Shown here: one piece after another, positions 11,996 to 57,546 of the stretch
Layout: every line of letters starts with the position of its first letter
Position numbering within the stretch: position 1 is the stretch's first letter
Assembly (NCBI GenBank): GCA_034005145.1
Contig: JAVEVH010000001.1
Span: 1,899 to 65,898, forward strand
DNA length: 64,000 bases
Reading direction: 5' to 3'
Source of the DNA: Candidatus Dojkabacteria bacterium
GTDB taxonomy: Bacteria > Patescibacteriota > Dojkabacteria > SC72
Made by a program: the position numbers and the translations under genes
The notes under the pieces: generated by a model
The model's database searches: none
Seen by the model: the letters and a program-made list of their open reading frames with translations, nothing else
Told to the model about the DNA's origin: nothing

Positions 11996-12024
11996 TTGAC
12001 AAACGTACACATTTCTACTATTAT
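11996..12024 (+). promoter_or_regulatory. Sigma70-type promoter upstream of the giant gene (TTGACA-17-TATTAT)
   Basis: ttgaca at 11996-12001, 17-nt spacer, tattat at 12019-12024, about 64 nt upstream of ATG 12088. AAAGG SD-like about 12 nt before the ATG. Confidence 0.5.
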
Positions 12025-12087: not shown

Positions 12088-15000
12088 ATGATAAAAACTA
12101 ACTGCCCAAATATAGCAAAAAACTTATTCATTTTGCTGATAGTATCCTTTATTTTTGCTAGCTTAATCCTTACTCCAACATATGCTTTAACATCCGACAC
12201 TATTAACTTCCAAGGGAAGATAGTAAGAAATGATACAGGCTATGAGGGACTCAATGTCATACCAGGTACTCCAGCGTGTGTAGTAAGTGGTGCAAGTAAT
12301 GATACCTGTGACTTCCAAGTAGCATATTACACAGCATCAACAGGAGGTACCCTTCTTCTTACAGAAACATTCTTAAACAGAGAGATAGGGGAATATGAGG
12401 GTATATTTGAGCTTTCCTTAGGCAGTGGATCTGTGACTACTACTGGGCAGTGTAGGGATGGTACCTGTAATACCGTAGGTGAGGTAATTTCAGAGTATGG
12501 TGATATATATCTTGAATTAAAATTTGCTCCTGATGGTACAAACTTAACAGAGACCTTTAACAGGATGCCTTTAGAAGCAAGTGCATATTCAATTTTTTCT
12601 AAATATGCAGAGGGTGCACACGATGCTTTTAAACTAAGTACTTCCATTAGTTCTCAAACACAATCATCTCCTACAACAGGTATGGTGTATTACAATACCA
12701 CTGCAGGAGAGGTACAAGTCTACAATGGGAGTGGATGGGAGAACATTAGTGGTGAGTCCTTGTGGACAGATGCAGGAACATTTACCTACCTTACCTCGGC
12801 AAGTGATGATTTAGTACTTGGTGCTAATACTGTAGCTGGTTCTACATTTTTCTTTGATATGGATGGGAGTAGTGGAAGCTACTTTGAGATAGATAATGGT
12901 GCTAATACAGAAAGGCTTTTTACAATATTAGCTAATGGAAATGTTGGAATAGGTACAGCATCTCCCGGAGCTAAGTTGGAAGTGGCTGGGGCAAGTTCCA
13001 CGATTACAAATTCTACTGGTAACCTCACTATTTCGACTGGTGGGTTAAATGGAAATATCATATTTTCACCACATGGGACTGGTACTGTTCTAGTTGAGTC
13101 TACATTTGGGATTAAAGAGACGGGTACAACTCCAACCTACTACACATATTTTCAAGGTGGAGATCAGGGGGGTAACATTACTTATACATTACCAGTAAAT
13201 GATGGTGATGCTTCCCAAGTACTTACTTCAAATGGTAGTGGTGTTCTTAGTTGGAGTACAGTCCTAACAGGTGCTTCTAGATGGAATGAGATAGCGGCTC
13301 CTAATGGTAATACTTCAATGAGTCATGGTACATATACAACATCTTTTACATTTACAAATACAACAACATCATCATTTAGTTTAACGGGTAATAGTATATC
13401 TTCTGGTAAATTATTTTCTTTAGCTTCTTCTTCAGTAGGGTTAACAGGTTCAGTAGCGGATATTACATTGTCTGGTAGTAATGCAGCTAATACAGGGAGT
13501 TTGCTTAGTTTAAATAATACGGGGACTTTAAATACAGGTACTACAATGGTAATAAATCATTATGCTACTGGTACTAATAACTTAGCATTTAGAGTAAATG
13601 ATGTATCAGCAGATACTACACCATTTGTAATAGATGGGAATGGGAATGTGGGAATTGGGACAACTACCCCAGAAGGGTCACTGACTGTAAATGGTAGTGT
13701 TGGTATTGGTGATAATGCGAGTATAACGCAAGCCAGCCATTTTGTTGACATATATTCGACAACAGATTACGGTGGATCAAATGAATCTACTTTAAGAGTA
13801 AGAACAGCAGTAGAAGGTAATTTGACAGGTACTGAGATGGCTGCACTTGCATATAGAAATTCAAATTGGCGAGTTCTTTATGCTCAGCAGGGCAGTGCAG
13901 GTTCAGCACTCTATACAGATGGAAATGTCCATTTTATGAATGGAAGTGTTGGTCTTGGTACGACAAGTCCTCAGAGTATCTTTAACATATATCACGCAAC
14001 GGATCCTAAAATAACACTTCAGAACAGTACTACAGGAGTAACAAGTACAGATGGGTTCTATATTTCAGAAATTGGCTCCAATGCATATTTGTGGAATAGA
14101 GAAGACGGAGAGATGTATTTTGCAGTCAATAATGGCACTGCCTTGACTATTCAAGCGGATAAAGATGTAATTGTAAATTCCGGTAACGTAGGAATAGGTG
14201 ACACCACCCCCGCCTCTCTCTTCACAGTAGGTAACAATGATGTGTTCCAAGTAAGCAGTACAGGAGATTTAGTAAGTATAAAGGGAGTCTCTTATGTATG
14301 GCCAAGTGCTAATGCAACAGGAATGTTAACAAACAATGGAAGTGGAACATTATCATGGACAGATTTAAATGCAGGAGATGAATTATTACCAACAGGAACA
14401 GAAGGACAGATGTTATATAACAATGCAGGAGTATGGACAGCATATAGTGGAATGTATTGGGATGATGTAAATAGTAGATTGGGGATAGGGACTACGAGTC
14501 CAAGTACAAAGTTTGATTTGGTAGGAAATATGAAGACCTCAGGTTCAATATTTTCGGATGAGTCTGGTCCTCAACAAATAATCAAATTCCCAAATGTATA
14601 TGAGCCTGTGAATTTCGGTGCAAGTACTGGTGCAATAAAAATCAAGTTGCCAGCAAGAGCAGACAATGCAATGGTTAAAATAATAGTTGATATATATTCT
14701 TATAGCGGCAGTCAGTTAGCGGCTACATATGAGATAGGTGGGTATAATATTGGTGGGTCTTTTACTGCTAGCTATGCTTATACTCTTACTGGAAAGAGTT
14801 TCTTCCTCAATCTCCCAGTTAGATTTGGTGATGATTCTACCAATCTTATGTCATATATAATTATAGGGAATACTGATACCGCATGGGGGTCTTATTCTCC
14901 ATCTGTGGTTATTAGAGAAGTTCAGATTACAGGCTGGGGTGCTAGTACAAGTACAAATTGGCAAGATCCAAATAGTTATGAAATTACTATGACTACGGAT

Positions 15001-18000
15001 ACAACAGGTTTAACACTTTCAACGATAGCATCAACAACATCTCCAGCAGTGTTAGCGGGTAGTGTATCTGGTCTTACCGCTGGATCAATTCCGTATGCTT
15101 CTTCAGCAGGATCCCTTACTCAGAATAATGCGAATCTCTTCTGGGATGCTACCAATGCTAGAATAGGATTAGGAACAAATACTACAACAGCGAGAATTAC
15201 CTTAGGAGCCTCAACTGCTGCTACGGGAGGAATAGATTTTGGTGGAGATACTCCGTTATATAGATCCGCTGCAAGTATTCTTAAGACAAGACATTTATAT
15301 CCAGAAACGACAGGGACATATAATTTAGGTAATTCTTCCTTAGAGTGGCAATATATCTACGCTACAAGGATAATTGGTTCTGCGTATATAAATTCTGATT
15401 ATTTTGCTAGATATTCAGTAAATAATACTGCTTTTTTTGACTCGACTGCAGGAAATCCAGAATTGAGGGTTTATGGAAATGATGGTGCATTTAAATATGG
15501 ATATATGAAAGTTGATACTAACGGTGCATTTAATATTCTTTCTCAAACAGGTGAGGAGGTGAAATTGGGAGCTAATAATACTGTAGGTTTAACAATCGCG
15601 ACTTCAAATAACGTAGGAATAGGTGACACCTCCCCCGCCTCCCTCTTCACAGTAGGTAACAATGATGTGTTCCAAGTAAGCAGTACAGGAGATTTAGTAA
15701 GTATAAAGGGAGTCTCTTATGTATGGCCAAGTGCTAATGCAACAGGAATGTTAACAAACAATGGAAGTGGAACATTATCATGGACAGATTTAAATGCAGG
15801 AGATGAATTATTACCAACAGGAACAGAAGGACAGATGTTATATAACAATGCAGGGGCATGGACAGCATATAGTGGAATGTATTGGGATGATACAAATAGT
15901 AGGTTAGGGATAGGGACTACGAGTCCTGGAGCAAAATTACAAATAAATACAGGTGCAGACGCTACGAAGGGGTTAATAATAAGAGGGAATACCTCTCAAT
16001 CTGCCAATTTAACAGAATGGCAGAATAGTGGAGGGACAATTCTTGCAAGTGTAGATAGGATTGGTCATTTATCTGTTAATAATATACAGGCTTTATATGG
16101 AGGTTCTGCACAAGTAGATTCTATTGGAGGAACTTCATATTTGCCATATATGACGGATGCCTATTCAGATCAATTTATATTTAAACCTGTAACATCCTTA
16201 GAATATGACACAACAGGTTCTGGAAACTGGGTATCTCAAACAGCAAGCAATGCAAATGTTCTATTGGATAATTCTCAGAGTACATCATTAGCTATTCCAA
16301 CTGCTACTGCAAAAGGATTTAGGGTAGTTATCAATACAGGAGCTTGGTTGGCCCCTCAACTATTTGTTTTGGAGCAATCTTGGGCAAGCGGGAGCCCAAG
16401 TGGATCAGCACCACTTGAAATCACCCTTGAATCATCTCCCAATGGAACTGATACTTGGACTGTAAGAAAAGCTACTACAGCATTTGATTACCATGGTAGT
16501 AGTACAAATAAATATGTTTGGTTAACCGGTCATACAAGTGATCCTTATTGGAGAGTTACTGTTGTAAGGACAGATACTGGTACACAGGATCTTAGAGTTC
16601 AAAATATAAAGCTTTTGGCTTCATCAAATATGAGTTTTGGTTATACAAGGAGTTTACCATATGAATTTAACTATGATAAAAGTTTCAATTTCTACAATGA
16701 TAGTATGAAGATTAAATTAGCTAGTGGCCAAACAGCTAATGCGATTGAAATAAAGAATAGTTCAGGAACAGACCTTGCACTCATCTCCTCTGCTGGAGGT
16801 GCTTATTTTGCTAGCAACGTAGGAATAGGTGATACTACCCCCGCCTCTCTGTTTACAGTAGGTAATGGAGATCTATTCCAAGTAAACAGTAGTGGAGATT
16901 TAATAAAAATAAAAAATGTAACATACTCATGGCCAAGTGCTAATGCAAGTGGAGTATTAACAAACAATGGAAGTGGAACATTATCATGGACAGATTTAAA
17001 TGGAGGAGATGAATTATTACCAACAGGAACAGAAGGACAGATGTTATATAACAATGCAGGAACATGGACAGCATTTAATGGAATGTATTGGGAGGATGTA
17101 AATAGTAGGTTAGGGATAGGGACTACGAGTCCATTAAGCAGCTTAGACCTTAATAACGGAATTCTTTCTAGATATAACTCAAGTTGGACTGGTCTTAACA
17201 ATTCTGTAATAATTCCAACTCAAAACATTCTAGCTTTTGCAGATAAAAATTCTAATTATACAGTAACATTATCATCTCAGCCTGACTCAGGAAGTGTATC
17301 AAGTTTATTTGATGGTAATACGGGTACTACAGCTCTTTGGTATGATGCGAAATTGCCACTAACGATTCAGATAGATTTAGATAAACAGTACAATCTTAAT
17401 CATTTGTTTGGTGTAGGTTTTTATGGCCAATATTTTGCAAAGGATATAAAAATTGAAGTCTACAATGGAAATACTTCTACTTGGTATACAATTGTAGATA
17501 CTACTTCGAATGCTGATGATAGTTTTTCTTTCTACCAATATTATAACTACGTAACCAAGGTAAAGTTTACGTTCAATACATCAAATTCAAGTGGACGTAT
17601 AAATATCTCTACCCTCGTAGATGGTAATACCATGGATAGGAAGGGATATTATGTAAACAAGGGAGGGGATACTATGTATGGTGCTCTTACTATCAAGGGT
17701 ACAACCTCAGATAGTAGTGCTTTTGGACTTAACGTTACTGATTCAGCTAATGCTAGTAACTTTTATGTCAGAAATGATGGAAATGTTGGTATAGGGACTA
17801 CCACTCCTGGTTCAAGATTAGATGTTACAGCAAGTACCTCAAATGCTCTTGTAAATATTAATCAAACAAATACTTGGTCAGGATCGGAATGGGCATTATC
17901 GGTAACAGGGTATACAAATCTTAACGGGTTTAGAATAAATGCTGCAGATGGTATTAGGGCTCTTCATAAAGTGACTGCGGGTGGTGTAATGGGATTCTCA

Positions 18001-21000
18001 ACTCAAGGAGATGATCCTATCACATTCACGCAGTCTTCTAGCACTGAGAGAATGCGTATTGCTACTGGAGGTAATGTAGGAATCGGTGACACAACCCCCG
18101 CCTCTCTCTTTACAGTAGGTAGTGGAGACCTATTCCAAGTAAATAGTAGTGGAGATTTAATAAAGATTAAAAATGTAACATACTCCTGGCCAAGTAGTAA
18201 TAGTAGTGGAGTATTAACAAACAATGGAAGTGGAACATTAACATGGACAAACATAAGTAGTAGCTTATTACCAACAGGAACAGAAGGACAAATGTTGTAT
18301 AACAATGCAGGGACATGGACAGCATTTAATGGAATGTATTGGGATGATGTGAATAGTAGGTTAGGGATAGGGACTACGAGTCCTACTGCATATTTAGACA
18401 TAGAGTCTCCTGATGCAACTAGTTTACATCAAGAATGGAAAAGAGTAGATACAGGGAAAAGCTTTAATATTAGCCTTGCAGGTAGTGATTGGAGATTATC
18501 AGGTAGTGCAGGAGAAAACATCCTTCTAGCAGTTGATGCAAGCAGTTTAAATACAACAAACCTTGTAGGTATTGGAAGTAGTAACCCTGGTGCGAAATTA
18601 CAAATAGATACAGGAGCAGATGCTACTAAGGGTTTAATAGTCAAGGCGAATTCCGCAACTCAATCTGCAAATCTTACAGAATGGCAGAATAGTGCGGGTA
18701 CTGTATTAGGAGCAGTGACACCAACTGGAGCTTATTATATTGGTTCAAGCTCAAACTATACAACAGCTTTTACGGTTAAGGGCTCTTGGAGTGCTTCTAC
18801 TTACGGTATGATTTTAGACTTAGAACCAAGTGTAACTATTAGTGGATATGGTGGGTATGGCATATATTCAAATCCTTCAGTTACCCTTACAAACAGTAGT
18901 TGGAAAACAATTGAGAGTTCAATTAACAATCTCGTTGTTACAGGTACAAATGATTATAGAGGTTTCCATTTTAGTCAACCTGCGAATCTCACTGGAACAT
19001 TGACCAGCCAATACGGTATATATATTAACAGCTTAGACAAAGCAACCTCTAACTATGCTATTTATACAAACACAGGATTAAATAGGCTAGGTGATCAATT
19101 ATCTATTCTTGGTAGTGCAGATAGAACACAGTTAATAGTTAAGGCCAATTCTACACAAACTGTTAATCTTCAAGAATGGCAAAATAGTAGTGGAGTTGGA
19201 CTTTCTGTAATTAGTGGAAGCGGTTATTTAGGAGTAGGAGATTCAACCCCTGCCTCTCTCTTTACAGTAGGTAGTGGAGACCTATTCCAAGTAAATAGTA
19301 GTGGAGATTTAATAAAGATTAAAAATGTAACATACTCCTGGCCAAGTAGTAATAGTAGTGGAGTATTAACAAACAATGGAAGTGGAACATTAACATGGAC
19401 AAACATAAGTAGTAGCTTATTACCAACAGGAACAGAAGGACAGATGTTATACAACAATGCAGGAACCTGGACAGCATACAGTGGAATGTATTGGGATGAT
19501 GTGAATAGTAGGTTAGGGATAGGGACTACCAGTCCTCAGAGTACTGCACATGTATATGGAGCTTCCTCTATCAATACTATTTCAGGTATTTTTGGTAGGG
19601 GTTACCAAGTAGACAGTACAAACTATGGGTCCTTTGGTGCGAATTCTAGAGTAGGTCTTGTTGGAGCAACATACTATTCTAGCGTACCTAATTTACCCAT
19701 TAACCCCCTTGGTACACAGTATGCATCTGCTGGTTTGGTTGGTATAGGAGGGGGTACTAGTGGAGGTGGCTCGGGAATAGGAGTTTTTGGTTATGGACAA
19801 ACAGTTGATGCGAGAACTGGATTTACTGCAGGTGGTAGATTTATTGCTGAGACAAACGGAGATATCACAGCATATGAAGATTTGTATGGTGTTTATGCTA
19901 AAGCTAACGGTATTACTAATACTGTTGGGGCAGATAATTTATATGGTGTATATGGAGTTGCAACTGGGCAAGGTACGGATATTGCTTACGCAGGATATTT
20001 TTCAGCTACCGGGGGTGCTACTAATTATGGAATATATTCTGTAGCCGGTAACAACTATTTTAATGGTAGTGTTGGGATCGGCACAACCTCCCCAGACTAT
20101 ACCCTTCAAGTAAACGGAACCATAGCACCAGAGACAACAGATCAAGATCTAGGTACATCATCTTTAAGATGGGATGTATATGGTAATACAATAAATGCAG
20201 ACAGTACAGTAACCTTAACAGGCTTAGGAACAGGAACAGATAACTCAGTAGTAATATTAAACTCATCAAATCAATTAACAACAGATGAGATAGACAGTAG
20301 AGTATGGGGAACAAGCTTAGTAGATGGAAGTGGAACAACAGGTCAGTTATCCTACTGGGTAGATGCAAATACATTAGGCTCCCTAAGTTACTCAGGTTGG
20401 GATACAAATGCTAGTGATGATGTAACAGCATTCTTAGGTCTAACAGATACCCCAAGTGCATATACAGGCAATGGAGGATACTTAGTAAGAGTAAATTCAG
20501 GAGGAACAGCATTAGAGTTTGTAGCAGCTAGTACATATACAGATACCAATGACTATGTAGACTCAGTAGGATTTAATACAAGTAACGGAGTATTAACCCT
20601 AGGTAGAACAGGAGCATTACCAGACCTAACAACAGACTTAGATGGAAGATATTTACAATCAGAAGCAGATACCCTAGCTACAGTAACCGGTAGAGGAGCA
20701 AGTACAGCAACAGCACTCTCTCTAACCGGAGGAGCTACAGTAAGAGGTTTAACAGTAGATAATGCAACAGCAACCCATGACTTAATATCCATAACCGCAG
20801 CAGCAACAGGTGCCGCAAGATATACAGGAACCATAACTAATGCAGACCTAACAGCAGCACGTACATGGACATTCCCAAATAATACAGGTACTGTAGCACT
20901 AACTACTGATATACCAGCAGGAGCAACATATTGGACTAAGAATGCAGCAACCTTGTATCCTACAACCTCAGGAGATAGTGTAATACCTAATGGAACAGCA

Positions 21001-24000: not shown

Positions 24001-27000
24001 TATGCAAACCTTAGTACAGGTAATGTAGGAATAGATACAGGCTCTGCAGTTCCTGGAGCTAAATTACAAATAGGAGCAGGAACGTATGGACCAGGTGCTA
24101 ATCTGTCAGGTAATAGATTACAGATAAGCTCTAGCTCTGGTTGGGCATATATGACAATAGGTAATGCAGATGGTGCTAATACCCACAGATATATTGGTGG
24201 AGCAAGTGGAATACAGGCATTTGGTGTAGTATCTGATGCAGGATCTACTACAGAACATATGAGAATTACTTCTACAGGTAATGTAGGAATAGGGGATAGT
24301 AACCCTCTCTCACTACTTTCTGTAGGTACTGGTGGACTCTTTAGAGTAGATAGTGCAGGAGATTTAACTAGAGTAAAGGGAGTAACATACTCATGGCCAA
24401 GTGCAAATGCTACTGGTATATTAGCAAACAATGGTAGTGGTACACTCTCATGGTCATCACTAACAAGCTTAGGTGGAGCATTAGGTACAGGTGCAGCAGG
24501 TAGAGCAGCATTCTGGACAGATACCAATACCCTATCTAGTGATAGTAATTTTGCTTGGGATAATGTAAATAAGAGATTAGGTATTGGTACTAGTACACCA
24601 CAATATTCATTAGATATAGCTGGTTCTACATCAGAAATAGGTAATACAGCAGGAGATATTACTATTAATCCTACAGGTAATTTAATATTATCTGATGGTA
24701 GATTTGGTATAGGTACTACTAATCCTCAAGCCTCTATAGATATAGCAGGAGCTACATCAGAGATAAGTAATGTTAGTGGGGATATAACTATTAATCCTGC
24801 TGCTAACCTTATTATTACTGATGGAAATGTAGGGATAGGTGAGAGTACTCCTACAGGCGTTATAGATGCTATATATTCCACTTCTGCAGGTACTAGGAAA
24901 ATGGTTTTAACTAGTTCAGGACTTCGTTTTAGGAGGACTGGGGACACGGCTGCTTGGGCAATAAATGGCTATGGATTTAGTTCAAACAATGGTACGGATC
25001 TTGGTGGATTTGGGGCTTATGGTACAGAGACATCTCTTAATTATTACTATATAGGAACTACTTATTCCTCTCCTCTTATGTCTATTTCCAGTGGGGGAGC
25101 TGTTGGTATTGGAGTTGCTTCTGCTACCAAAACTCTTGAAGTAGCTGGTAATATGAAAATGTCCTACACAAACACAGGTACAGGTAGTACAGATATCTTT
25201 GATACTACATATACACAATCTGTAGCAGCTCCTGCAGGTACTATTAATGGTGGTATGTTTAAAGCTATCTTTAATACCACTGGTACTATGTATGATATGG
25301 CTGCTTTAAAAACAGATATTCAAAATACTAGTAGTGGTACAGTAAGTAGAATGTTTGGATTTAGAAATGAAATACATAATGAAAGTACAGGAACTGTTAC
25401 ATTAGCATCCTCTATATATGGTAGAGGATACCAAGCAGATGCAGCAGGTACTATCTCTGGATTACATACATTCTGGGCTGAGGGAGCATATAAAGGGGCC
25501 GCAGGTACTATCACTGGTCAAACAGGTTTAACAGTAAGTGGTTTAACTACTGCTACTAACAATACGCACATCTTATTAGGTACAGCATCTATACCTACAG
25601 GTAACTACGCTATATATAGTAGTACTTCCTCTGCTAGTTACTTCGCAGGGGATCTTACTACATCCAGAGCATTTGTAACAGGTTTATCTTCGAGCTGGGG
25701 TGTTACAAGTGGTGTAAATACAGGTGGTGTAAATGTGACTATGGGAACATCTTCAGCTGCAACATGGCTAATCTCTGGAACAAGTGGTGGGACTTTCCGT
25801 GCAGGTTTACAGGCACTTGATAGTAGTGGAATATTAAGAATATATTCTAATAGTAGTTATGTTTCTTTTGATGGAGGAGCTATCTCCGCTACAGGTGCAG
25901 TAAATGTAGGATCTTTACAAATTAATAGTACTACTCCAACATTAACATTCAATGAAACAGATCAAGTAGCTTGGACATACTCTATAGATGGAGATCAGTG
26001 GTTAGTTAAGAGAAGTGGTGTAGATAAGTTGGTAGTAAATAATGCAGGATCTTTAATTATTAAGGGAGATTTATCAAATAATGAGGATTCGACAGTATAT
26101 ATGGGTGCTACAGCTTCAAGCTCATCCTTAAGGCTTAAGAGTAATAATTCAGATACTCTTACTCTATACTCCAATGGTAATGTAGGTGTGGGTAATACTG
26201 CTCCTGCAGCTAAATTAACTGTAGGATCAAATATAACGGGAAGTGCTGCTAGTACAACCTTCCAGACTAATGCAGGATCTTTAGGGACAGCAATTTACAG
26301 CTCATTAAAATTAGCATCTATAGGGTTTACTTCCTCAAATCAATCATCTTTGACTATCTTGGGATATAGGCATACTGCTGGTACAAACTGGGACACAACC
26401 TCTATTGGTATAGGAATGAGTGTAGATTCGTCAACCTATGTAAATGATGCTGCATTATGGATTAGTCATCATGGGCACGTTGGAATAGGCGCTGGTGCTA
26501 TGTCATATAAATTTGAGGTAACTGATAACGATGCTGCATATACTACAATGTCCCAAAATACTTATACAGGAGCTAATAAGAAAAACTTATTAATAAGAAA
26601 TTATAGCTCTAATGGTAGTTTTGCTACCTCTGACTATCTCGTCGTATTCTCTAATACATATAACTGGGGTGTTAATGGAAGAATAAATGGTAATGGTACT
26701 GGAATTCAATATACGACATCATCAGATGCAAGACTTAAAACAAACGTTAGTTCCATTTCTAACGCACTTGATACTTTAATGAAGATGGATGCAGTCACCT
26801 ATAATTGGATTAATGGTGGGGCTAAAGATGCAGGTTTCTTAGCTCAAGACTTACAGCCACTCTATCCATTTGCAGTTAGTGGGAGTCCTGATGGAGATCC
26901 AATAATGGATCCAATGACTATTGATTACGGTAAATTAACACCAATAATTGTTGCTGCAATAAAGGATTTAAATAAGAAGGTGGATTCTAATGTATTAGGA

Positions 27001-28161
27001 ATCCAAAACCAGATAGAAGAAATAGAGGATTCCTTAGGCTTACTTCCAACTCCTACTTACAATATCTCTACCTCAGGTTGGTACCGTATATCTCAACTAA
27101 ACGGTCCTGATGATTACGCTAAGATAAAGGTAAATAATAGTACATTAGGATCATCACAAAACCTCATACTAAGTGTAGATACAGTAGGGGGAAATAATAA
27201 TGTAAATATAATATCTAACTTTACTACTGGAGGATATGACATTAGTAAAGCAAGAATAAATGAAGTAAGTGGTATTAAATACTTAGAAATATACTTAGAA
27301 AATGTAAATAATAATAGTATTAAGGTAGATATAGATGGAGATATAACTAACTGGATATCTACAAACATTACTAAAGTAGATGACACTCTAATAGTTGAAA
27401 AAGAGTATGAATTCAGTGGATTACTCTTTGGAGTAAGTGATACCCTAGAAGTAGAAGAAGGAAGTATGAGAGTAAAAGGAAATCTCTTAACAAACTCCGA
27501 TGAATTAAATAACATTGGAGAAGATACAAACAGATGGAATGATATATATGCTAAAGGTGCAATAAGGTTAGGAAGTGGAGTAGGAAATGAGGGAGCAATT
27601 AGATTTAATGTAGAAAATCAAGTATTAGAATTTAGTAATGACGGTACTACATGGGTACAACTAGGAGACCTAAGCTCTCAAACAGTAATATCTCCAGAAT
27701 ATCCAGGAGCCATACTCTTTGCAGACGGAAGTGATAACTTTGGAAATATGACATCTGATGCAGAAGAGAGTACAGGCTCATTCAGAAACTACTACGAATG
27801 GATATCAGACAGAGAAACACTTCAAGATTACGATATCTTAGTAAGAGTAACACTACCATCTGACTTTGTAAGTTGGAAAGATGATGCAATATATCTAGAC
27901 TTCATGACCGAAAACTCAGCCTCTATTAACAACAACAAAGTAGATATGTATTTAATGGGAAGTAACGGAATTGACGCTCAAGTAAATGATGGAATTAGTA
28001 AATTACCAGGAGCATGGGAAAGAGTAAGTATTAAAGCAATAGATATAAATGATTGTAATAACGCAGGAGATACATGTACTCTAAGAATCTCTCTAAGCTC
28101 TCTACAATCATACTTCGTAAGAGTAGGAGACATTACATTAAATTACAACAGAGGATTGTAA
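12088..28161 (+). CDS. Giant (5357 aa) secreted/membrane-anchored modular surface protein: tail-fibre-like Gly/Thr/Ser/Asn-rich repeats, Hep_Hag-like block, internal S74 intramolecular-chaperone autoprotease domain
   Basis: Single uninterrupted ORF with an N-terminal hydrophobic signal/anchor (LFILLIVSFIFASLILTPTYA). Repeated modules ...NVGIGDTTPASLFTVG...SWPSANATG.LTNNGSGTLSWT...LPTGTEGQMLYNNAG.WTA..GMYWDD.NSRLGIGTTSP. Hep_Hag-like N.A.G..AL repeats (aa ~3715-3950). S74-like motif TSSDARLKTNV...TIDYGKLTPIIVAAIKDL (aa ~4875-4985). Confidence 0.8.
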   Translation: MIKTNCPNIAKNLFILLIVSFIFASLILTPTYALTSDTINFQGKIVRNDTGYEGLNVIPGTPACVVSGASNDTCDFQVAYYTASTGGTLLLTETFLNREIGEYEGIFELSLGSGSVTTTGQCRDGTCNTVGEVISEYGDIYLELKFAPDGTNLTETFNRMPLEASAYSIFSKYAEGAHDAFKLSTSISSQTQSSPTTGMVYYNTTAGEVQVYNGSGWENISGESLWTDAGTFTYLTSASDDLVLGANTVAGSTFFFDMDGSSGSYFEIDNGANTERLFTILANGNVGIGTASPGAKLEVAGASSTITNSTGNLTISTGGLNGNIIFSPHGTGTVLVESTFGIKETGTTPTYYTYFQGGDQGGNITYTLPVNDGDASQVLTSNGSGVLSWSTVLTGASRWNEIAAPNGNTSMSHGTYTTSFTFTNTTTSSFSLTGNSISSGKLFSLASSSVGLTGSVADITLSGSNAANTGSLLSLNNTGTLNTGTTMVINHYATGTNNLAFRVNDVSADTTPFVIDGNGNVGIGTTTPEGSLTVNGSVGIGDNASITQASHFVDIYSTTDYGGSNESTLRVRTAVEGNLTGTEMAALAYRNSNWRVLYAQQGSAGSALYTDGNVHFMNGSVGLGTTSPQSIFNIYHATDPKITLQNSTTGVTSTDGFYISEIGSNAYLWNREDGEMYFAVNNGTALTIQADKDVIVNSGNVGIGDTTPASLFTVGNNDVFQVSSTGDLVSIKGVSYVWPSANATGMLTNNGSGTLSWTDLNAGDELLPTGTEGQMLYNNAGVWTAYSGMYWDDVNSRLGIGTTSPSTKFDLVGNMKTSGSIFSDESGPQQIIKFPNVYEPVNFGASTGAIKIKLPARADNAMVKIIVDIYSYSGSQLAATYEIGGYNIGGSFTASYAYTLTGKSFFLNLPVRFGDDSTNLMSYIIIGNTDTAWGSYSPSVVIREVQITGWGASTSTNWQDPNSYEITMTTDTTGLTLSTIASTTSPAVLAGSVSGLTAGSIPYASSAGSLTQNNANLFWDATNARIGLGTNTTTARITLGASTAATGGIDFGGDTPLYRSAASILKTRHLYPETTGTYNLGNSSLEWQYIYATRIIGSAYINSDYFARYSVNNTAFFDSTAGNPELRVYGNDGAFKYGYMKVDTNGAFNILSQTGEEVKLGANNTVGLTIATSNNVGIGDTSPASLFTVGNNDVFQVSSTGDLVSIKGVSYVWPSANATGMLTNNGSGTLSWTDLNAGDELLPTGTEGQMLYNNAGAWTAYSGMYWDDTNSRLGIGTTSPGAKLQINTGADATKGLIIRGNTSQSANLTEWQNSGGTILASVDRIGHLSVNNIQALYGGSAQVDSIGGTSYLPYMTDAYSDQFIFKPVTSLEYDTTGSGNWVSQTASNANVLLDNSQSTSLAIPTATAKGFRVVINTGAWLAPQLFVLEQSWASGSPSGSAPLEITLESSPNGTDTWTVRKATTAFDYHGSSTNKYVWLTGHTSDPYWRVTVVRTDTGTQDLRVQNIKLLASSNMSFGYTRSLPYEFNYDKSFNFYNDSMKIKLASGQTANAIEIKNSSGTDLALISSAGGAYFASNVGIGDTTPASLFTVGNGDLFQVNSSGDLIKIKNVTYSWPSANASGVLTNNGSGTLSWTDLNGGDELLPTGTEGQMLYNNAGTWTAFNGMYWEDVNSRLGIGTTSPLSSLDLNNGILSRYNSSWTGLNNSVIIPTQNILAFADKNSNYTVTLSSQPDSGSVSSLFDGNTGTTALWYDAKLPLTIQIDLDKQYNLNHLFGVGFYGQYFAKDIKIEVYNGNTSTWYTIVDTTSNADDSFSFYQYYNYVTKVKFTFNTSNSSGRINISTLVDGNTMDRKGYYVNKGGDTMYGALTIKGTTSDSSAFGLNVTDSANASNFYVRNDGNVGIGTTTPGSRLDVTASTSNALVNINQTNTWSGSEWALSVTGYTNLNGFRINAADGIRALHKVTAGGVMGFSTQGDDPITFTQSSSTERMRIATGGNVGIGDTTPASLFTVGSGDLFQVNSSGDLIKIKNVTYSWPSSNSSGVLTNNGSGTLTWTNISSSLLPTGTEGQMLYNNAGTWTAFNGMYWDDVNSRLGIGTTSPTAYLDIESPDATSLHQEWKRVDTGKSFNISLAGSDWRLSGSAGENILLAVDASSLNTTNLVGIGSSNPGAKLQIDTGADATKGLIVKANSATQSANLTEWQNSAGTVLGAVTPTGAYYIGSSSNYTTAFTVKGSWSASTYGMILDLEPSVTISGYGGYGIYSNPSVTLTNSSWKTIESSINNLVVTGTNDYRGFHFSQPANLTGTLTSQYGIYINSLDKATSNYAIYTNTGLNRLGDQLSILGSADRTQLIVKANSTQTVNLQEWQNSSGVGLSVISGSGYLGVGDSTPASLFTVGSGDLFQVNSSGDLIKIKNVTYSWPSSNSSGVLTNNGSGTLTWTNISSSLLPTGTEGQMLYNNAGTWTAYSGMYWDDVNSRLGIGTTSPQSTAHVYGASSINTISGIFGRGYQVDSTNYGSFGANSRVGLVGATYYSSVPNLPINPLGTQYASAGLVGIGGGTSGGGSGIGVFGYGQTVDARTGFTAGGRFIAETNGDITAYEDLYGVYAKANGITNTVGADNLYGVYGVATGQGTDIAYAGYFSATGGATNYGIYSVAGNNYFNGSVGIGTTSPDYTLQVNGTIAPETTDQDLGTSSLRWDVYGNTINADSTVTLTGLGTGTDNSVVILNSSNQLTTDEIDSRVWGTSLVDGSGTTGQLSYWVDANTLGSLSYSGWDTNASDDVTAFLGLTDTPSAYTGNGGYLVRVNSGGTALEFVAASTYTDTNDYVDSVGFNTSNGVLTLGRTGALPDLTTDLDGRYLQSEADTLATVTGRGASTATALSLTGGATVRGLTVDNATATHDLISITAAATGAARYTGTITNADLTAARTWTFPNNTGTVALTTDIPAGATYWTKNAATLYPTTSGDSVIPNGTASIGASGTRWQYVYGTYGNFSTSTTTPLIVGSTSLALRPSSNGTTAIQLQNAAGTSILNVDTTNSRVGIGKNDPTVALDVVGDIKASGVIRNVTVSGTTDTAAATAAKTATISNYTLTTGDLLSITFTNGNSVSTPTLNINSVGAVNIRLGNTDVNTTNMTLAAGSTVLMYYDGTYFQIMGSQRTADSNTYDRTYWGNNIRAGAAIYDYKLLMQKADGKWYPLTLEEGTGTTKTVSTEAFTINSPILYYATTTNIAANGTLSNVYSEIPTTYLNYTANQASWTTELPIYLVGTIDSSGNFVLDNTSYTSFMTQTLPSTEDGKVYILLGQMYSTTGLRLFQYHPIYEYRNGGVRPYAPEASVKWSSLFAPTDNTSIDHSTYTTAFSFGATNTTAFSMTGNSLTTGKLLSLTSSYADAGNVFYVGATGAHTGAAAAIVSATATGNALNVTGDSITSGVVTNISSTSTEGTTSGSSIVLNIARSGVNTYADHTAYGVYSTVSNTNVTSGTNIAGYFSASGATTANYGLLVPEGYVGIGTGTPSRLLDIDGDMRLRGFIYDVNDESGTSGQILSRSSSGVDWIDASALSGVDWDEIGDPSSSSQIDHGATNTIFTFNGLTSGAGFQLSSNSTAGTASSYSRVLDITRSGVNANASHTAYGVYSAVTNSGSSSTNVGGYFSASGGTSNFGLIVGNGNVGIGTTNPSTSKLVVNTSSYSTIQLQYGGTAVVDIYSNVSSNIFMGLASGQAVTSGIENVAYGFNALTANTTGTRNVAIGHQTMTTNVAKQGSTAIGYQAMMYAHNTTTGSLTYNTAIGYQALVGSATAANNTGTGNTAVGHQSLTSNTSGSSNTALGVNALNSNATGGSNVALGYNAAFTNVAKGGIVAIGYEAMRYAYSNSTVASTYNIGIGYQALMGSTTAANNSGVGNTALGYQAGMDVTSGNYNTLIGYIAGDDLTTGINNTIIGYNAGQNLTTGGSNILIGNGTSTTTPAAGTSNWMNIGNAIYANLSTGNVGIDTGSAVPGAKLQIGAGTYGPGANLSGNRLQISSSSGWAYMTIGNADGANTHRYIGGASGIQAFGVVSDAGSTTEHMRITSTGNVGIGDSNPLSLLSVGTGGLFRVDSAGDLTRVKGVTYSWPSANATGILANNGSGTLSWSSLTSLGGALGTGAAGRAAFWTDTNTLSSDSNFAWDNVNKRLGIGTSTPQYSLDIAGSTSEIGNTAGDITINPTGNLILSDGRFGIGTTNPQASIDIAGATSEISNVSGDITINPAANLIITDGNVGIGESTPTGVIDAIYSTSAGTRKMVLTSSGLRFRRTGDTAAWAINGYGFSSNNGTDLGGFGAYGTETSLNYYYIGTTYSSPLMSISSGGAVGIGVASATKTLEVAGNMKMSYTNTGTGSTDIFDTTYTQSVAAPAGTINGGMFKAIFNTTGTMYDMAALKTDIQNTSSGTVSRMFGFRNEIHNESTGTVTLASSIYGRGYQADAAGTISGLHTFWAEGAYKGAAGTITGQTGLTVSGLTTATNNTHILLGTASIPTGNYAIYSSTSSASYFAGDLTTSRAFVTGLSSSWGVTSGVNTGGVNVTMGTSSAATWLISGTSGGTFRAGLQALDSSGILRIYSNSSYVSFDGGAISATGAVNVGSLQINSTTPTLTFNETDQVAWTYSIDGDQWLVKRSGVDKLVVNNAGSLIIKGDLSNNEDSTVYMGATASSSSLRLKSNNSDTLTLYSNGNVGVGNTAPAAKLTVGSNITGSAASTTFQTNAGSLGTAIYSSLKLASIGFTSSNQSSLTILGYRHTAGTNWDTTSIGIGMSVDSSTYVNDAALWISHHGHVGIGAGAMSYKFEVTDNDAAYTTMSQNTYTGANKKNLLIRNYSSNGSFATSDYLVVFSNTYNWGVNGRINGNGTGIQYTTSSDARLKTNVSSISNALDTLMKMDAVTYNWINGGAKDAGFLAQDLQPLYPFAVSGSPDGDPIMDPMTIDYGKLTPIIVAAIKDLNKKVDSNVLGIQNQIEEIEDSLGLLPTPTYNISTSGWYRISQLNGPDDYAKIKVNNSTLGSSQNLILSVDTVGGNNNVNIISNFTTGGYDISKARINEVSGIKYLEIYLENVNNNSIKVDIDGDITNWISTNITKVDDTLIVEKEYEFSGLLFGVSDTLEVEEGSMRVKGNLLTNSDELNNIGEDTNRWNDIYAKGAIRLGSGVGNEGAIRFNVENQVLEFSNDGTTWVQLGDLSSQTVISPEYPGAILFADGSDNFGNMTSDAEESTGSFRNYYEWISDRETLQDYDILVRVTLPSDFVSWKDDAIYLDFMTENSASINNNKVDMYLMGSNGIDAQVNDGISKLPGAWERVSIKAIDINDCNNAGDTCTLRISLSSLQSYFVRVGDITLNYNRGL
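14185..19535 (+). repeat. Five near-identical ~311-317-bp direct repeats inside the giant gene (starts ~14185, 15610, 16816, 18073, 19236; spacing 1.16-1.43 kb)
   Basis: Copies 1/2 and 4/5 are about 97-99% identical at DNA level. They encode the conserved linker NVGIGDTTPASLFTVG...RLGIGTTSP between divergent ~300-aa modules. A sixth, diverged copy lies near 24290-24600. Confidence 0.8.
26701..27030 (+). other. Region encoding a peptidase-S74 / C-terminal intramolecular chaperone-like autoproteolytic domain (internal, about 480 aa from the C-terminus)
   Basis: Conserved S-D-x-R-L-K (SSDARLKTNVSS) followed by the ...DYGKLTPIIVAAIKDL... helix characteristic of phage endosialidase/tail-spike CIMCD domains. 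Confidence 0.6.
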
Positions 28162-31082: not shown

Positions 31083-31709
31083 ATGGGAGTTAAAGATAGT
31101 TTAGGTAGTGATAACGGGAAGTTTCTACTACTAGCATTTGCACTACTACTGGTATCCATAGTAATTGTTTTTGTAATGAATTCTGGTATGTACGGTCTCT
31201 CTGGAGACCTTCTAAATGGTAAAAGTACATACAGTGAACCTAAAGATGTACTTGAGCAGGAGTATGATTACTCAATATTGATAAGTACCATATATGGTGA
31301 TATCCAGATAGATTTGTATGAGGAATTAGCTCCTAACAATGTAAATAGTTTGTTGTTTTTAATGGGAGAACGATACTATGAAGGTCTTACAATACATAAG
31401 GTAGTAAAGGATTTTGTAATACAAATGGGAGATGCTAAAGGAGATGGTACAGGTGATCCTGGATATACAGTAGAGCAGGAGAACTTAGTTTCTTTTGAGG
31501 ATTTTGAGGTAGGTATGGCAAACTCTTCTCAATTTTTCATAGTGTTAGAGGGAGCAGACAAGAGTACCTTAGATGGGAATTACAGTGTAGTTGGAAGAGT
31601 AACCCAAGGGTTTGCAGTATTAGAATCAATAGGGAAGGTAGAAGTCAATGGAGACTACAGGCCACTTAATGATATCGTAATTAAGAGTATTCAAATCCAA
31701 GAGAATTAA
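31083..31709 (+). CDS. ppiB: Peptidyl-prolyl cis-trans isomerase, cyclophilin type, N-terminal membrane anchor
   Basis: Cyclophilin core motifs (YEGLTIHKVVKDFVIQMGD, NSSQFFIV, GRV.QG..VL..I) after an N-terminal TM segment. Confidence 0.85.
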   Translation: MGVKDSLGSDNGKFLLLAFALLLVSIVIVFVMNSGMYGLSGDLLNGKSTYSEPKDVLEQEYDYSILISTIYGDIQIDLYEELAPNNVNSLLFLMGERYYEGLTIHKVVKDFVIQMGDAKGDGTGDPGYTVEQENLVSFEDFEVGMANSSQFFIVLEGADKSTLDGNYSVVGRVTQGFAVLESIGKVEVNGDYRPLNDIVIKSIQIQEN

Positions 31710-48386: not shown

Positions 48387-48460
48387 GCACCCGTAGCTCA
48401 ATTGGATAGAGCAACGCACTCCTAACGCGTAGGTTACTGGTTCGATTCCGGTCGGGTGCA
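48387..48460 (+). tRNA. tRNA-Arg (anticodon CCU)
   Basis: Acceptor GCACCCG/CGGGUGC, D-arm identical to the other two tRNA-Arg genes, anticodon loop CUCCUAA (one A-C mismatch closing the anticodon stem), T-arm ACTGGTTCGATTCCGGT. TGGTATAAT -10 lies 10 nt upstream. Confidence 0.65.
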
Positions 48461-48491
48461 TACCGTTAATATTTCTTACATATATACATAT

Positions 48492-54847: not shown

Positions 54848-54851
54848 ATGT

Positions 54852-56540: not shown

Positions 56541-56546
56541 GTTTTT

Positions 56547-57527: not shown

Positions 57528-57546
57528 ATATTGATATATTTAAATA

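What the first reader, a model, noticed from the sequence alone, without database searches (positions are those of the whole stretch)
12088..28161. 5357-aa giant surface protein with an internal phage-tail-spike-type S74 intramolecular-chaperone/autoprotease domain
Seen: one 16,074-nt ORF (25% of the window) with N-terminal signal/anchor and Gly/Thr/Ser/Asn-rich beta-solenoid-like repeats. At aa ~4875-4985 (nt ~26700-27030) lies a clear S-D-A-R-L-K ... DYGKLTPIIVAAIKDL signature. Established: this motif defines the peptidase S74 C-terminal intramolecular chaperone domain of phage endosialidases/tail spikes and T5 L-shaped fibre. It drives trimer folding and then autocleaves at the Ser. Unusual: here the domain is not terminal; ~370 further residues follow (nt ~27050-28158). 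Autocleavage would release a ~480-aa fragment. Inference: a host/partner-cell attachment fibre built from phage-tail-like trimeric beta-helix modules, consistent with an episymbiotic CPR lifestyle.
Basis: partly seen in the sequence, partly recalled or inferred. Interest (0 to 1): 0.7.

Follow-up and report, generated by a model that had tools for sequence, protein, structure and literature searches.

The report
Giant phage-fibre-like surface protein, internal self-cleaving chaperone
A tiny-genome (Dojkabacteria/CPR) bacterium encodes a 5,357-residue secreted fibre built like a phage tail fibre. Its self-cleaving folding domain is not at the end but is followed by a conserved, sugar-binding-like tail module. 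That tail turns out to be a large, undescribed protein family.

Summary
The ORF 12088-28161 encodes 5,357 aa. Its SDARLK motif (Ser4879) lies in a Peptidase_S74 hit of 52.8 bits (E 5e-14), with 381 residues after the domain.

The context is cellular: housekeeping genes of a Dojkabacteria (CPR) genome, not a phage.

New findings:
- **Recurrent architecture.** S74 followed by Ext occurs in 17 distinct homologues, and all keep the Ser..Lys dyad. S74 homologues without Ext end 0-67 aa after the domain.
- **Alternative chaperone.** At the same locus in relatives, Ext is instead preceded by an unrelated phi29-gp12-type (Peptidase_G2-like) self-cleaving chaperone. A genome 90% identical downstream loses all similarity exactly at the S74/Ext linker.

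Closest analogue: the Bdellovibrio MAT fibres (S74-terminated or β-sandwich-tipped).

Best reading: a MAT-like trimeric surface fibre. A variable shaft-plus-chaperone cassette sits between a constant N-terminal base and a constant C-terminal module. Autocleavage at Ser4879 would release a 52.5-kDa fragment. Cleavage, trimer state and Ext's role are inferred, not shown. This is a new variant of a known kind.

The parts
11996..12024 (+). promoter-like site TTGACA-17-TATTAT in the 115-nt gap after the leucyl-tRNA synthetase gene (leuS)
   Evidence: 11 of 12 matches; a consensus match only
12088..28161 (+). giant ORF, 5,357 aa (558.8 kDa, pI 4.5)
12088..12189 (+). predicted Sec signal peptide, aa 1-34 (h-region aa 13-31, TYA|L; orthologues have AYA|Q)
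   Evidence: read from the sequence, no predictor was run
12190..13263 (+). constant N-terminal region, aa 35-392 (INFQGK... domain). It is conserved at 40-77% in Dojkabacteria proteins and ~50% in the syntenic 1,695/1,741-aa orthologues
   Evidence: weak sub-threshold hit to NF053851 Bdello_MAT_N
14185..14520 (+). conserved ~110-aa fibre module, copy 1 (aa 700-811)
15613..15945 (+). fibre module, copy 2 (aa 1176-1286; 93% aa identity to copy 1)
16819..17151 (+). fibre module, copy 3 (aa 1578-1688)
17263..17595 (+). F5/8 type C (discoidin)-like insert, aa 1726-1836
   Evidence: 28.0 bits against a cutoff of 28.2, E 2.7e-6 (borderline)
18076..18384 (+). fibre module, copy 4 (aa 1997-2099)
19228..19560 (+). 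fibre module, copy 5 (aa 2381-2491; 97% aa identity to copy 4)
24283..24618 (+). fibre module, copy 6 (aa 4066-4177; ~46% identity)
25096..26721 (+). phage-tail-fibre-like shaft directly upstream of the chaperone (aa 4337-4878)
   Evidence: phrog_5668 (E 1e-23), phrog_9942 and phrog_8215 tail-fibre/baseplate profiles. The profiles end where S74 ends
26722..27045 (+). Peptidase_S74 intramolecular chaperone/autoprotease, aa 4879-4986. Predicted scissile bond is Ser4878|Ser4879; Lys4884 is at nt 26737-26739; a long C-terminal helix follows
   Evidence: (pLDDT 81-90, helix at model residues 169-205)
27042..27066 (.). recombination boundary in the linker LLPTPTYNIST. Relatives L001 and L004 are 86-90% identical in DNA from here downstream and unrelated upstream
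27058..27411 (+). Ext-A beta-sandwich, aa 4991-5108. It is found only in proteins with a self-cleaving chaperone directly upstream (22 of 23)
   Evidence: (pLDDT 80-91)
27544..27651 (+). Ext-B short fibre-like segment, aa 5153-5188 (RWNDIY...IRFN..LEFSNDG..W)
27670..28158 (+). Ext-C jelly-roll, CBM-like, aa 5195-5357 (EYPGA..DG..N.G.MTSD..NYYEW..DYD..LP.DF.W). It is the strictly C-terminal domain of a family of at least 2,074 clusters
   Evidence: (pLDDT 88-95)
28161..31058 (+). downstream 965-aa protein with an N-terminal TM helix and a Laminin_G_3 domain. Its ATG overlaps the giant's stop (TAATG). It is conserved downstream of the fibre gene in all relatives

Best explanation
The gene encodes a Sec-exported surface fibre of a Dojkabacteria (CPR/Patescibacteria) cell. 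The fibre is presumably homotrimeric and phage-tail-fibre-like. It is the functional counterpart of the Bdellovibrio 'mosaic adhesive trimer' (MAT) fibres.

It is built from three evolutionary parts:
- a constant N-terminal base (signal peptide plus aa 35-392);
- a hypervariable shaft, here inflated to ~4,500 aa by six conserved modules alternating with unrelated, probably lectin-like inserts, ending in its cognate S74 intramolecular chaperone;
- a constant ~370-aa C-terminal module (Ext) made of CBM-like beta-sandwiches.

Proposed mechanism. After export, three S74 domains associate through their C-terminal helices and nucleate folding of the shaft from the C-terminal side. The Ser4879/Lys4884 dyad then cuts before Ser4879. 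This separates a ~500-kDa-per-chain fibre (aa 35-4878) from a 52.5-kDa S74+Ext fragment.

Ext is most likely a glycan-binding docking or assembly module. It would work with conserved envelope partners, possibly the translationally coupled LamG membrane protein and the cyclophilin encoded just downstream. It is less likely to be the variable host-recognition tip.

Shown: domain identities, architecture, conservation pattern, cassette boundary and synteny. Inferred: trimer state, cleavage, surface location, and the roles of the N-terminal base, the shaft and Ext.
For: - **S74 identity.** The HMM hit is well above threshold. The Ser and the Lys at +5 align to endoNF-type, GA-1 and MyRF solved domains. 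In MyRF, S587 and K592 are each indispensable for cleavage and are equivalent to endoNF S911/K916 (PMC8326128).
- **Dyad conservation.** The Ser..Lys dyad is kept in 17 of 17 divergent S74 copies that sit upstream of Ext.
- **Shaft.** Phage tail-fibre PHROG profiles match the ~540 aa upstream and stop at the S74 end.
- **Export.** Only one hydrophobic segment exists, at the N-terminus, with a signal-peptidase-type motif conserved in orthologues.
- **Cellular locus.** The order Rho - M23/LysM - LeuRS - fibre - LamG protein - cyclophilin - ComEA - ComEC is conserved. The fibre gene ranges from 857 to 1,695, 1,741 and 5,357 aa.
- **Cassette logic.** Ext-A+B+C is preceded by a self-cleaving chaperone in 22 of 23 cases: 13 S74 and 9 G2-like. 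The G2-like identity rests on PF11962 at 30.1 bits against a cutoff of 25 on a P0004 segment, and on a profile hit to phi29 gp12 (6QZ9/3GQH) with D-x-A-E aligned to D692-F-A-E695. 3GQH, the C-terminal domain chain, starts at that Asp.
- **Boundary.** L004 is 90% identical in DNA from nt 27066 onward and unrelated upstream.
- **Analogy.** MAT fibres have a signal peptide, an invariant N-domain thought to be cell-proximal, a trimeric beta-helix, and either a terminal S74 or beta-sandwich tips. Autocleavage was proven for Bd3182 at S782 (PMC10769870).
Against: - No experiment or multimer model shows trimerisation or cleavage.
- The monomer AF2 model cannot show a triple beta-helix.
- In about 70 family members Ext-C is fused directly to fibre sequence with no chaperone. 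It therefore must function in the mature protein there. That sits awkwardly with a purely transient assembly role.
- One IMG/VR contig has a 399-aa Ext-C-terminated protein beside a weakly tail-like gene. This would fit a receptor-binding tip.
- Homology of the N-terminal domain to the MAT N-domain is not established (15.6 bits against a cutoff of 60).
- Any link between Ext and the downstream LamG and cyclophilin genes rests on synteny and start/stop overlap only.
Confidence: 0.55

Rival explanations
1. Ext is the functional distal tip, a lectin that binds the partner or host cell, and it stays on the fibre. In this reading S74 serves only as an internal trimerisation clamp. Either it does not cut in this context, or the two cleavage products stay associated.
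For: Ext is CBM-like. In most family members Ext-C is fused directly to fibre sequence without a chaperone. A predicted viral contig carries an Ext-C-terminated short protein next to a tail-like gene. MAT NS74 fibres end in beta-sandwich tips (PMC10769870).
Against: The catalytic dyad is conserved in all 17 S74 copies upstream of Ext, and the D-x-A-E cleavage motif in 18 of 25 G2-like copies. That argues for selection on cutting. Ext is the conserved part of the locus (86-95% between strains whose shafts are unrelated), the opposite of what is expected for a host-recognition tip. MyRF cuts with large domains downstream (PMC8326128).
Confidence: 0.2
2. MYRF-like release. Ext tethers the precursor to the cell envelope by binding wall or S-layer glycans. 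S74 cleavage then sheds the completed trimeric fibre into the medium as a free adhesin or bacteriocin-like agent.
For: The signal peptide looks cleavable, so the N-terminus may not be anchored. Ext is conserved and strictly C-terminal in thousands of proteins, like a sorting or anchoring domain. MYRF is a precedent for an internal ICA that releases the N-terminal trimer (PMC3742440).
Against: No TM segment or known wall-anchor motif occurs in aa 4879-5357 (maximum KD 0.85; no Pfam or NCBIfam hit). The N-terminal region is also conserved and resembles the cell-proximal base of MAT fibres in position. No evidence of shedding exists.
Confidence: 0.12
3. It is a phage or prophage tail-fibre gene, or a remnant of one, rather than a cellular surface protein.
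For: S74 plus tail-fibre PHROG hits.
Against: The flanking genes are housekeeping (leuS, rho, clpC, radA, comEA/EC, argS, RuBisCO, proS). The position is syntenic in at least five genomes. No virion genes are present. An N-terminal signal peptide is present. Ext is absent from 50,697 phage records.
Confidence: 0.03
4. The 16-kb ORF, or the S74-Ext junction, is an assembly artefact (repeat-driven chimera or mis-join).
For: Internal DNA repeats of 300 nt at 95-96% identity exist. Related contigs L001 and L004 break inside the gene.
Against: The frame stays open for 16,074 nt in a 37% GC sequence. The same S74-Ext junction appears in independent assemblies: P0001 at 91%, P0002 at 70%, L001, L002, and the full-length P0054-P0063. 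Only the copy number of the internal modules could be wrong.
Confidence: 0.03

Closest known systems
Bdellovibrio bacteriovorus mosaic adhesive trimer (MAT) fibre superfamily (Caulton et al. 2024, PMC10769870)
   Same: Both are cellular, not viral. Both have a signal peptide, a conserved beta-rich N-terminal domain, a phage-like trimeric fibre and an S74 SDxxxK chaperone/autoprotease (cleavage proven for Bd3182). The alternative members end in beta-sandwich or lectin tips. The organisms live by contact with other bacteria.
   Different: In MAT proteins S74 is the terminus, and the non-S74 tips are the variable part. Here S74 is internal and is followed by a conserved module. This protein is about five times larger. 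It comes from a CPR bacterium, a group generally regarded as single-membraned (from general knowledge, not tested here). N-domain homology is not established (15.6 bits against a cutoff of 60). G2-type chaperones are not reported for MATs in the passages read.
Phage endosialidase, T5 pb1 and GA-1 gp12 C-terminal intramolecular chaperone domains (Peptidase S74, PF13884)
   Same: An HMM hit at 52.8 bits, the Ser-Lys dyad, a C-terminal helix, and a tail-fibre-like sequence upstream.
   Different: Those domains are C-terminal and are discarded alone. This one is encoded in a cellular housekeeping locus and carries 381 further residues.
MYRF (eukaryotic membrane-tethered transcription factor with an internal ICA domain)
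   Same: An internal S74/ICA with substantial sequence downstream. The profile aligns to 7DC3 at E 2e-11.
   Different: There is no NDT80 DNA-binding domain and no TM helix downstream. The protein is extracellular and the downstream part is made of CBM-like beta-sandwiches.
phi29 gp12 pre-neck appendage autochaperone (Peptidase_G2, PF11962)
   Same: This is the alternative module that occupies the S74 position in orthologues (P0004, P0011, L003, L004 and others). The D-x-A-E motif aligns to D692/E695.
   Different: It is not present in the window protein itself. In phi29 it is C-terminal, whereas here it is again followed by Ext.
Carbohydrate-binding modules with the beta-jelly-roll fold (CBM61, CBM4, CBM6, CBM36, CBM35)
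   Different: Sequence identity is 5-14% with no sequence-family membership. Ligand binding is untested. The fold is generic.

Membership tests
Peptidase S74 / C-terminal intramolecular chaperone domain (PF13884) | Profile match above the curated threshold | tested here: met
   52.8 bits against a cutoff of 22, E 4.8e-14, aa 4879-4930
Peptidase S74 / C-terminal intramolecular chaperone domain (PF13884) | Catalytic Ser with Lys at +5 (endoNF S911/K916; MyRF S587/K592) | tested here: met
   S4879 and K4884 align to the SDxRxK of 6F45, 8JOV, 7DC3 and 3GUD. The residue roles come from PMC8326128.
Peptidase S74 / C-terminal intramolecular chaperone domain (PF13884) | Long C-terminal helix able to form the trimeric coiled coil | tested here: met
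   The AF2 monomer model has a helix at model residues 169-205 (aa 4947-4983) with pLDDT 84-89. This is a prediction only.
Peptidase S74 / C-terminal intramolecular chaperone domain (PF13884) | Domain lies at the C-terminal end of the protein (true of the phage members) | tested here: not met
   381 residues follow the domain. Homologues without Ext have 0-67 residues after it. MYRF shows this feature is not obligatory.
Peptidase S74 / C-terminal intramolecular chaperone domain (PF13884) | Trimer-dependent autocleavage | not testable with these tools
   No multimer prediction or experiment was available.
Phage tail fibre / tailspike (virion component) | Encoded among virion and phage genes | tested here: not met
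   The neighbours are leuS, rho, M23, comEA/EC, argS and similar genes. The locus is syntenic in five genomes.
Phage tail fibre / tailspike (virion component) | Sequence similarity to tail-fibre families | tested here: met
   phrog_5668 at E 1e-23, phrog_9942 at 3e-19, plus phrog_18345 and phrog_33119
Bdellovibrio MAT fibre superfamily | Signal peptide followed by the conserved MAT N-terminal domain (NF053851) | tested here: inconclusive
   A signal-peptide-like N-terminus is present. NF053851 scores only 15.6 bits against a cutoff of 60, E 0.01.
Bdellovibrio MAT fibre superfamily | Fibre ending in S74 or in an adhesive tip domain | tested here: met
   Both are present in one chain: S74, then CBM-like domains. 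This is a variant arrangement.
Bdellovibrio MAT fibre superfamily | Surface localisation and glycan binding | not testable with these tools
   Requires experiment.
MYRF-type membrane-tethered ICA proteins | TM helix downstream of the ICA domain and an NDT80 DNA-binding domain upstream | tested here: not met
   The maximum KD-19 score in aa 4879-5357 is 0.85. No NDT80 hit was found.
Trimeric autotransporter adhesins (YadA-like) | Hep_Hag / HIM / YadA-anchor profile matches | tested here: not met
   None at E <= 0.1 in ten overlapping 600-aa pieces
CBM / galactose-binding-like beta-jelly-roll (for Ext) | Fold similarity | tested here: met
CBM / galactose-binding-like beta-jelly-roll (for Ext) | Sequence membership of a described family, or carbohydrate binding | tested here: not met
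   No Pfam, NCBIfam or PHROG hit on aa 4987-5357. Binding is not testable here.
Peptidase_G2 IMC (PF11962), for the orthologues that lack S74 | Profile match and D-x-x-E cleavage motif | tested here: met
   The P0004 segment scores 30.1 bits against a cutoff of 25; P0011 scores 24.7. The profile hits phi29 gp12 6QZ9 at E 6e-4 with the motif aligned to D692/E695. The module is absent from the window protein.

The most novel reading that the evidence does not exclude
The Dojkabacteria leuS-adjacent locus is a cassette-exchange system for surface fibres. Whole 'shaft plus cognate self-cleaving chaperone' cassettes, of either S74 type or phi29-gp12/G2 type, are recombined between a constant N-terminal base and a constant C-terminal module. 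That constant module (Ext) is a previously undescribed, strictly C-terminal domain family of CPR surface proteins, with at least 2,074 clusters at 50% identity. It would act as a sorting, anchoring or assembly device. Autocleavage is then the step that uncouples each new variable fibre from the constant machinery.
Probability: 0.3. Interest if true: 0.75.

Novelty: new variant of a known kind. Interest (0 to 1): 0.55.

Why it matters
CPR/Patescibacteria make up a large share of bacterial diversity, and all cultivated members are episymbionts. How they recognise and hold partner cells is known mainly for type IV pili in Saccharibacteria.

This locus offers a concrete candidate for a second system: a phage-derived, self-processing fibre with a swappable shaft, parallel to the MAT fibres of predatory Bdellovibrio.

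It also yields three things that can be tested directly:
- an S74 domain that must work from an internal position in a bacterial protein;
- two unrelated autoproteolytic chaperones used interchangeably at one site;
- a large, unannotated, strictly C-terminal domain family that any CPR surface-proteome annotation currently misses.

Tried and rejected
- **Single-sequence PDB search** of the C-terminal 579 aa gave only noise. A profile was needed.
- **Self-BLAST** of the whole protein returned only the identity hit. Tiled 200-aa queries were used instead.
- **Global MAFFT** of full-length hits (A1) aligned terminal S74 domains onto Ext. It was rebuilt from trimmed segments (A2).
The single protein was used.
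- **Whole-protein Pfam scans** missed the G2-like module, whereas segment scans found it. The giant was therefore rescanned in ten pieces. Nothing new appeared beyond a borderline F5/8-type-C hit.
- **NCBIfam** gave nothing significant.
- **AF2 plus Foldseek on P0004**, meant to confirm the G2 fold, was uninformative because jelly-roll hits dominated the list. The PDB profile search settled the point instead.
- **Ext in phages:** no match in 50,697 phage records and none by the close-relative scan of IMG/VR. A degenerate-pattern scan gave one true hit (L008) and one false hit (L009).
- **Taxon names** for distant Ext-family members were mostly unavailable. The family's range beyond Dojkabacteria/WS6 and unclassified 'bacterium' is therefore unknown.
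- **Literature:** no paper in the library links S74 or G2 chaperones to CPR.
- **Rejected readings:** prophage gene, MYRF-type membrane tether, TAA adhesin, assembly chimera. Reasons are given under rivals and membership.
Full report
**1. The observation**

The window has one ORF at 12088-28161 (+) of 5,357 codons. SDARLK begins at aa 4879 (nt 26722), and DYGKLTPIIVAAIKDL spans aa 4946-4961.

Pfam Peptidase_S74 (PF13884) matches aa 4879-4930 at 52.8 bits, E 4.8e-14, against a cutoff of 22. The result is the same whether the protein is scanned in three or in ten pieces. A profile built from this region and its homologues hits four solved S74/ICA domains: phage S16 long tail fibre 6F45 (E 6e-17), tail fibre 8JOV, MyRF ICA 7DC3 (E 2e-11) and GA-1 neck appendage 3GUD. 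The Ser and the Lys five residues later align in all of them. In MyRF these residues (S587, K592) are equivalent to endoNF S911/K916, and both are indispensable for cleavage (PMC8326128).

The domain is internal: 479 residues (52.5 kDa) run from Ser4879 to the end. Only the phrase 'beta-solenoid-like repeats' is unverified. What can be shown is six copies of a ~110-aa module separated by unrelated inserts.

**2. Whose gene it is**

The neighbours are housekeeping genes:
- upstream: nth, S1, clpC-like, radA, rho, an M23/LysM peptidase and leuS;
- downstream: a LamG-domain protein, cyclophilin, comEA, comEC, an MBL-fold protein, argS, a sigma factor, RuBisCO (large chain), proS, uvrA and mreB.

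Close relatives of the C-terminal part lie in Dojkabacteria/Patescibacteria MAGs. The order rho - M23/LysM - leuS - fibre gene - LamG gene - cyclophilin - comEA - comEC recurs in L002, L003 and L005. The downstream part recurs in L001 and L004.

The fibre gene at that position is 857 aa (L005), 1,695 aa (L002), 1,741 aa (L003) and 5,357 aa here. The orthologues share the signal peptide and the first ~390 aa (~50% identity), a stretch at aa 4333-4640, and the C-terminal ~370 aa. This is therefore a cellular, lineage-conserved but hypervariable locus, not a prophage.

The gene has its own promoter-like site, TTGACA-17-TATTAT. Its stop overlaps the start of the LamG gene as TAATG.

**3. What follows the S74 domain**

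In 29 S74 homologues that lack the extension, the protein ends 0-67 residues after the domain. Phage tail-fibre PHROG profiles also end at about aa 4967-4980.

The extra ~370 residues ('Ext') were modelled by AlphaFold2 with a 41-sequence alignment:
- the S74 part, pLDDT 81-90, with a long helix at aa 4947-4983;
- Ext-A, a beta-sandwich at aa 4991-5108, pLDDT 80-91;
- a low-confidence linker;
- Ext-B, a short fibre-like segment;
- Ext-C, a jelly-roll at aa 5195-5357, pLDDT 88-95.

A profile of Ext searched against 1.84 billion representative proteins finds 2,074 clusters at E <= 1e-3, of which 470 are at <= 1e-30. In all 150 listed, the match ends within 1-7 residues of the protein end. By a local HMM it ends within 0-3 residues in 160 of 164 Ext-positive proteins. 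The host proteins range from 139 to 3,965 aa. Named members are candidate division WS6/Dojkabacteria proteins annotated as 'T4-like proximal tail fiber', 'hemagglutinin-like', 'outer membrane protein' or hypothetical. Ext-C is thus a large, undescribed, strictly C-terminal domain family.

**4. The architecture is recurrent and modular**

Local HMMs show S74 directly upstream of Ext in 17 distinct homologues besides the window protein. These include full-length proteins of 1,210-2,343 aa and independent assemblies at 91% and 70% identity. That excludes a chimeric join. All 17 keep a Ser with Lys at +5: fourteen as SDxx[LIM]K and three as SSI[RK]xK.

Orthologues without S74 (L003, L004, P0003, P0004, P0009, P0011 and many representatives) carry a different ~180-aa module in the same place. 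It has the motifs D[LIVF]AE[NW][YF]P, GV[IV]ST.P, GR[VI]P.K and GKALE.
- A segment of P0004 hits Pfam Peptidase_G2 ('IMC autoproteolytic cleavage domain') at 30.1 bits against a cutoff of 25. P0011 scores 24.7 bits.
- A profile hits phi29 pre-neck appendage gp12 (6QZ9, E 6e-4). It also hits the separately deposited C-terminal chain 3GQH, which starts at DFAEYFE. The D-x-A-E motif aligns to D692-F-A-E695.
- From my own recollection of Xiang et al. 2009 (not checked here), gp12 autocleaves before D692.

Chaperone association by Ext content:

| Ext content | Chaperone directly upstream | Breakdown |
|---|---|---|
| Ext-A+B+C | 22 of 23 | 13 S74, 9 G2-like |
| Ext-B+C | 17 of 29 | 3 S74, 14 G2-like |
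| Ext-C only | 1 of 71 | that one G2-like match lies 523 aa upstream, so not adjacent |

At the DNA level, L004 is 90% identical to the window from nt 27066 (aa ~4994) through at least 11 kb of downstream genes. It has no similarity upstream, where it encodes the G2-like module. L001 behaves the same way from nt 27042. The boundary falls in the linker LLPTPTYNIST between the S74 helix and Ext-A. Ext therefore belongs, in evolutionary terms, with the conserved downstream genes, while the chaperone travels with the variable shaft.

**5. How it most likely works**

Shown:
- the domain identities;
- an intact dyad under purifying selection;
- the constant-variable-constant layout;
- the cassette boundary;
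- a single N-terminal hydrophobic segment with a signal-peptidase-type site (TYA|L here, AYA|Q in orthologues), and no TM segment near the C-terminus.

Inferred from established S74 biology (endoNF, T5 pb1, MyRF, and Bd3182, which self-cleaves at S782; PMC8326128 and PMC10769870): after Sec export, three chains associate through the S74 helices. The shaft folds from its C-terminal end. The dyad then cuts before Ser4879. The products are a fibre of aa 35-4878 (502.5 kDa per chain) and a 52.5-kDa S74+Ext fragment.

By analogy with the Bdellovibrio MAT fibres, whose invariant N-domain is thought to be cell-proximal, the conserved N-terminal region is the likely base, and the variable shaft is the part exposed to partners.

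For Ext I favour a glycan-binding docking or assembly role tied to conserved envelope components. It is the least variable part of the locus, it is strictly C-terminal in thousands of proteins, and its gene end is coupled to a conserved membrane LamG protein and a cyclophilin. This step has the least support.

**6. Rivals**

- **(a) Ext is the retained distal lectin tip, and S74 is only a clamp.** It is supported by the chaperone-free Ext-C proteins and by one IMG/VR contig with an Ext-C-terminated 399-aa protein beside a weakly tail-like gene. It is opposed by conservation of the dyad and of Ext itself.
- **(b) MYRF-like shedding from an Ext anchor.** This is possible because the signal peptide looks cleavable. 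There is, however, no known anchor motif.
- **(c) Prophage gene** and **(d) assembly artefact.** Both are rejected on context, synteny and independent assemblies. Only the module copy number could be wrong, given 300-nt repeats at 95-96% identity.

**7. Comparison with what is known**

The closest described system is the MAT superfamily of B. bacteriovorus. It has a signal peptide, a conserved N-domain and a trimeric phage-like fibre. Thirteen members terminate in S74 and eight in beta-sandwich, TNF-like or C-type-lectin tips. The fibres are surface-located and glycan-binding (PMC10769870).

The present protein works like a MAT fibre, but membership is not established: NF053851 scores 15.6 bits against a cutoff of 60. 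It differs in four ways:
- S74 and beta-sandwich domains occur in one chain;
- the terminal module is the constant part rather than the variable part;
- the G2-type chaperone alternates with S74;
- it is about five times larger and comes from a different phylum.

It is a bona fide member of the S74 family by sequence. It is not a virion protein, not MYRF-like (no TM, no NDT80), and not a YadA-type adhesin.

**8. Verdict**

The finding is real and well observed. Its interpretation is partly right.

The S74 call, by itself, is ordinary annotation, and NCBI already names such proteins 'tail fiber domain-containing protein'. The internal position has a eukaryotic precedent in MYRF and a functional analogue in predatory bacteria.

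What is new:
- the recurrent S74-plus-Ext architecture in CPR;
- the interchangeability of two unrelated self-cleaving chaperones at one junction, with a sharp recombination boundary;
- a family of at least 2,074 clusters of strictly C-terminal CBM-like domains with no existing model.

Rating: a new variant of a known kind, with interest 0.55.

Noticed in passing
window 28161-31058 (+): A 965-aa protein with an N-terminal TM helix and a Laminin_G_3 domain. Its ATG overlaps the giant gene's stop codon (TAATG). It is conserved directly downstream of the fibre gene in every relative (962-1,974 aa), so it may be a functional partner. The ORF list gives an earlier in-frame ATG at 28074, inside the giant gene.
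   Followed up: partly
window 31083-31709 (+); L006 3548-4642, L007 3452-4546: A cyclophilin-type PPIase with an N-terminal extension follows the fibre and LamG genes in all Dojkabacteria relatives. An unrelated Ext-C protein (P0030) is also followed directly by a Pro_isomerase+SLH gene. This may be a recurring link between Ext-C proteins and an extracytoplasmic foldase.
   Followed up: partly
window 17263-17595 (giant aa 1726-1836): An F5/8 type C (discoidin)-like insert between fibre modules 3 and 4. It scores 28.0 bits against a cutoff of 28.2. This suggests the variable inserts are lectin-like knobs on the shaft.
   Followed up: partly
window ~23150-23950 (giant aa ~3690-3950): A run of N-x-A-[IL]-G-type short repeats, duplicated internally (aa 3716-3849 against 3811-3943, 53% identity). 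It resembles YadA-head/Hep_Hag repeats by eye but has no Pfam hit. The N-terminal part of L001p aligns to it at 38%.
   Followed up: partly
L008 1819-3018 (-), IMG/VR UViG_3300037339_000735: A 399-aa protein on a predicted viral contig ends in an Ext-C domain (local HMM E 5.5e-55). It sits next to an ORF with weak PHROG tail-protein hits. This is the only sign that Ext-C also occurs in phage-like elements.
   Followed up: partly
(P0004, P0011): Whole-protein Pfam scans of these low-complexity fibre proteins returned nothing, while a 176-aa segment of the same protein scored above threshold for Peptidase_G2. Long biased proteins should be scanned in pieces.
   Followed up: yes
window 42388-43758 (+): A RuBisCO large-chain homologue next to proS, in a genome with otherwise minimal metabolism. 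Lateral transfer of RuBisCO among CPR bacteria has been described (PMC6389311, listed).
   Followed up: no
window 52734-59022: A MATCAP-like carboxypeptidase homologue (52734-53897, +) lies beside four consecutive ATP-grasp / RimK-like ligase genes on the minus strand (53894-59022). This may be a peptide-tail or amino-acid-ligation cluster.
   Followed up: no
window 50091-51662 (-) and 48456-50102 (+): A PEGA-domain protein of 523 aa (a domain I recall, from memory and unchecked, as associated with S-layer proteins) next to a family-2 glycosyltransferase. These are possible envelope components relevant to where the fibre or Ext docks.
   Followed up: no
L001 and L004 contig ends; window 14169-19521: Related MAG contigs break inside the fibre gene. 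The window gene contains 300-nt repeats at 95-96% identity. Such genes are therefore systematically fragmented in short-read assemblies, and most database homologues are 'partial'.
   Followed up: partly
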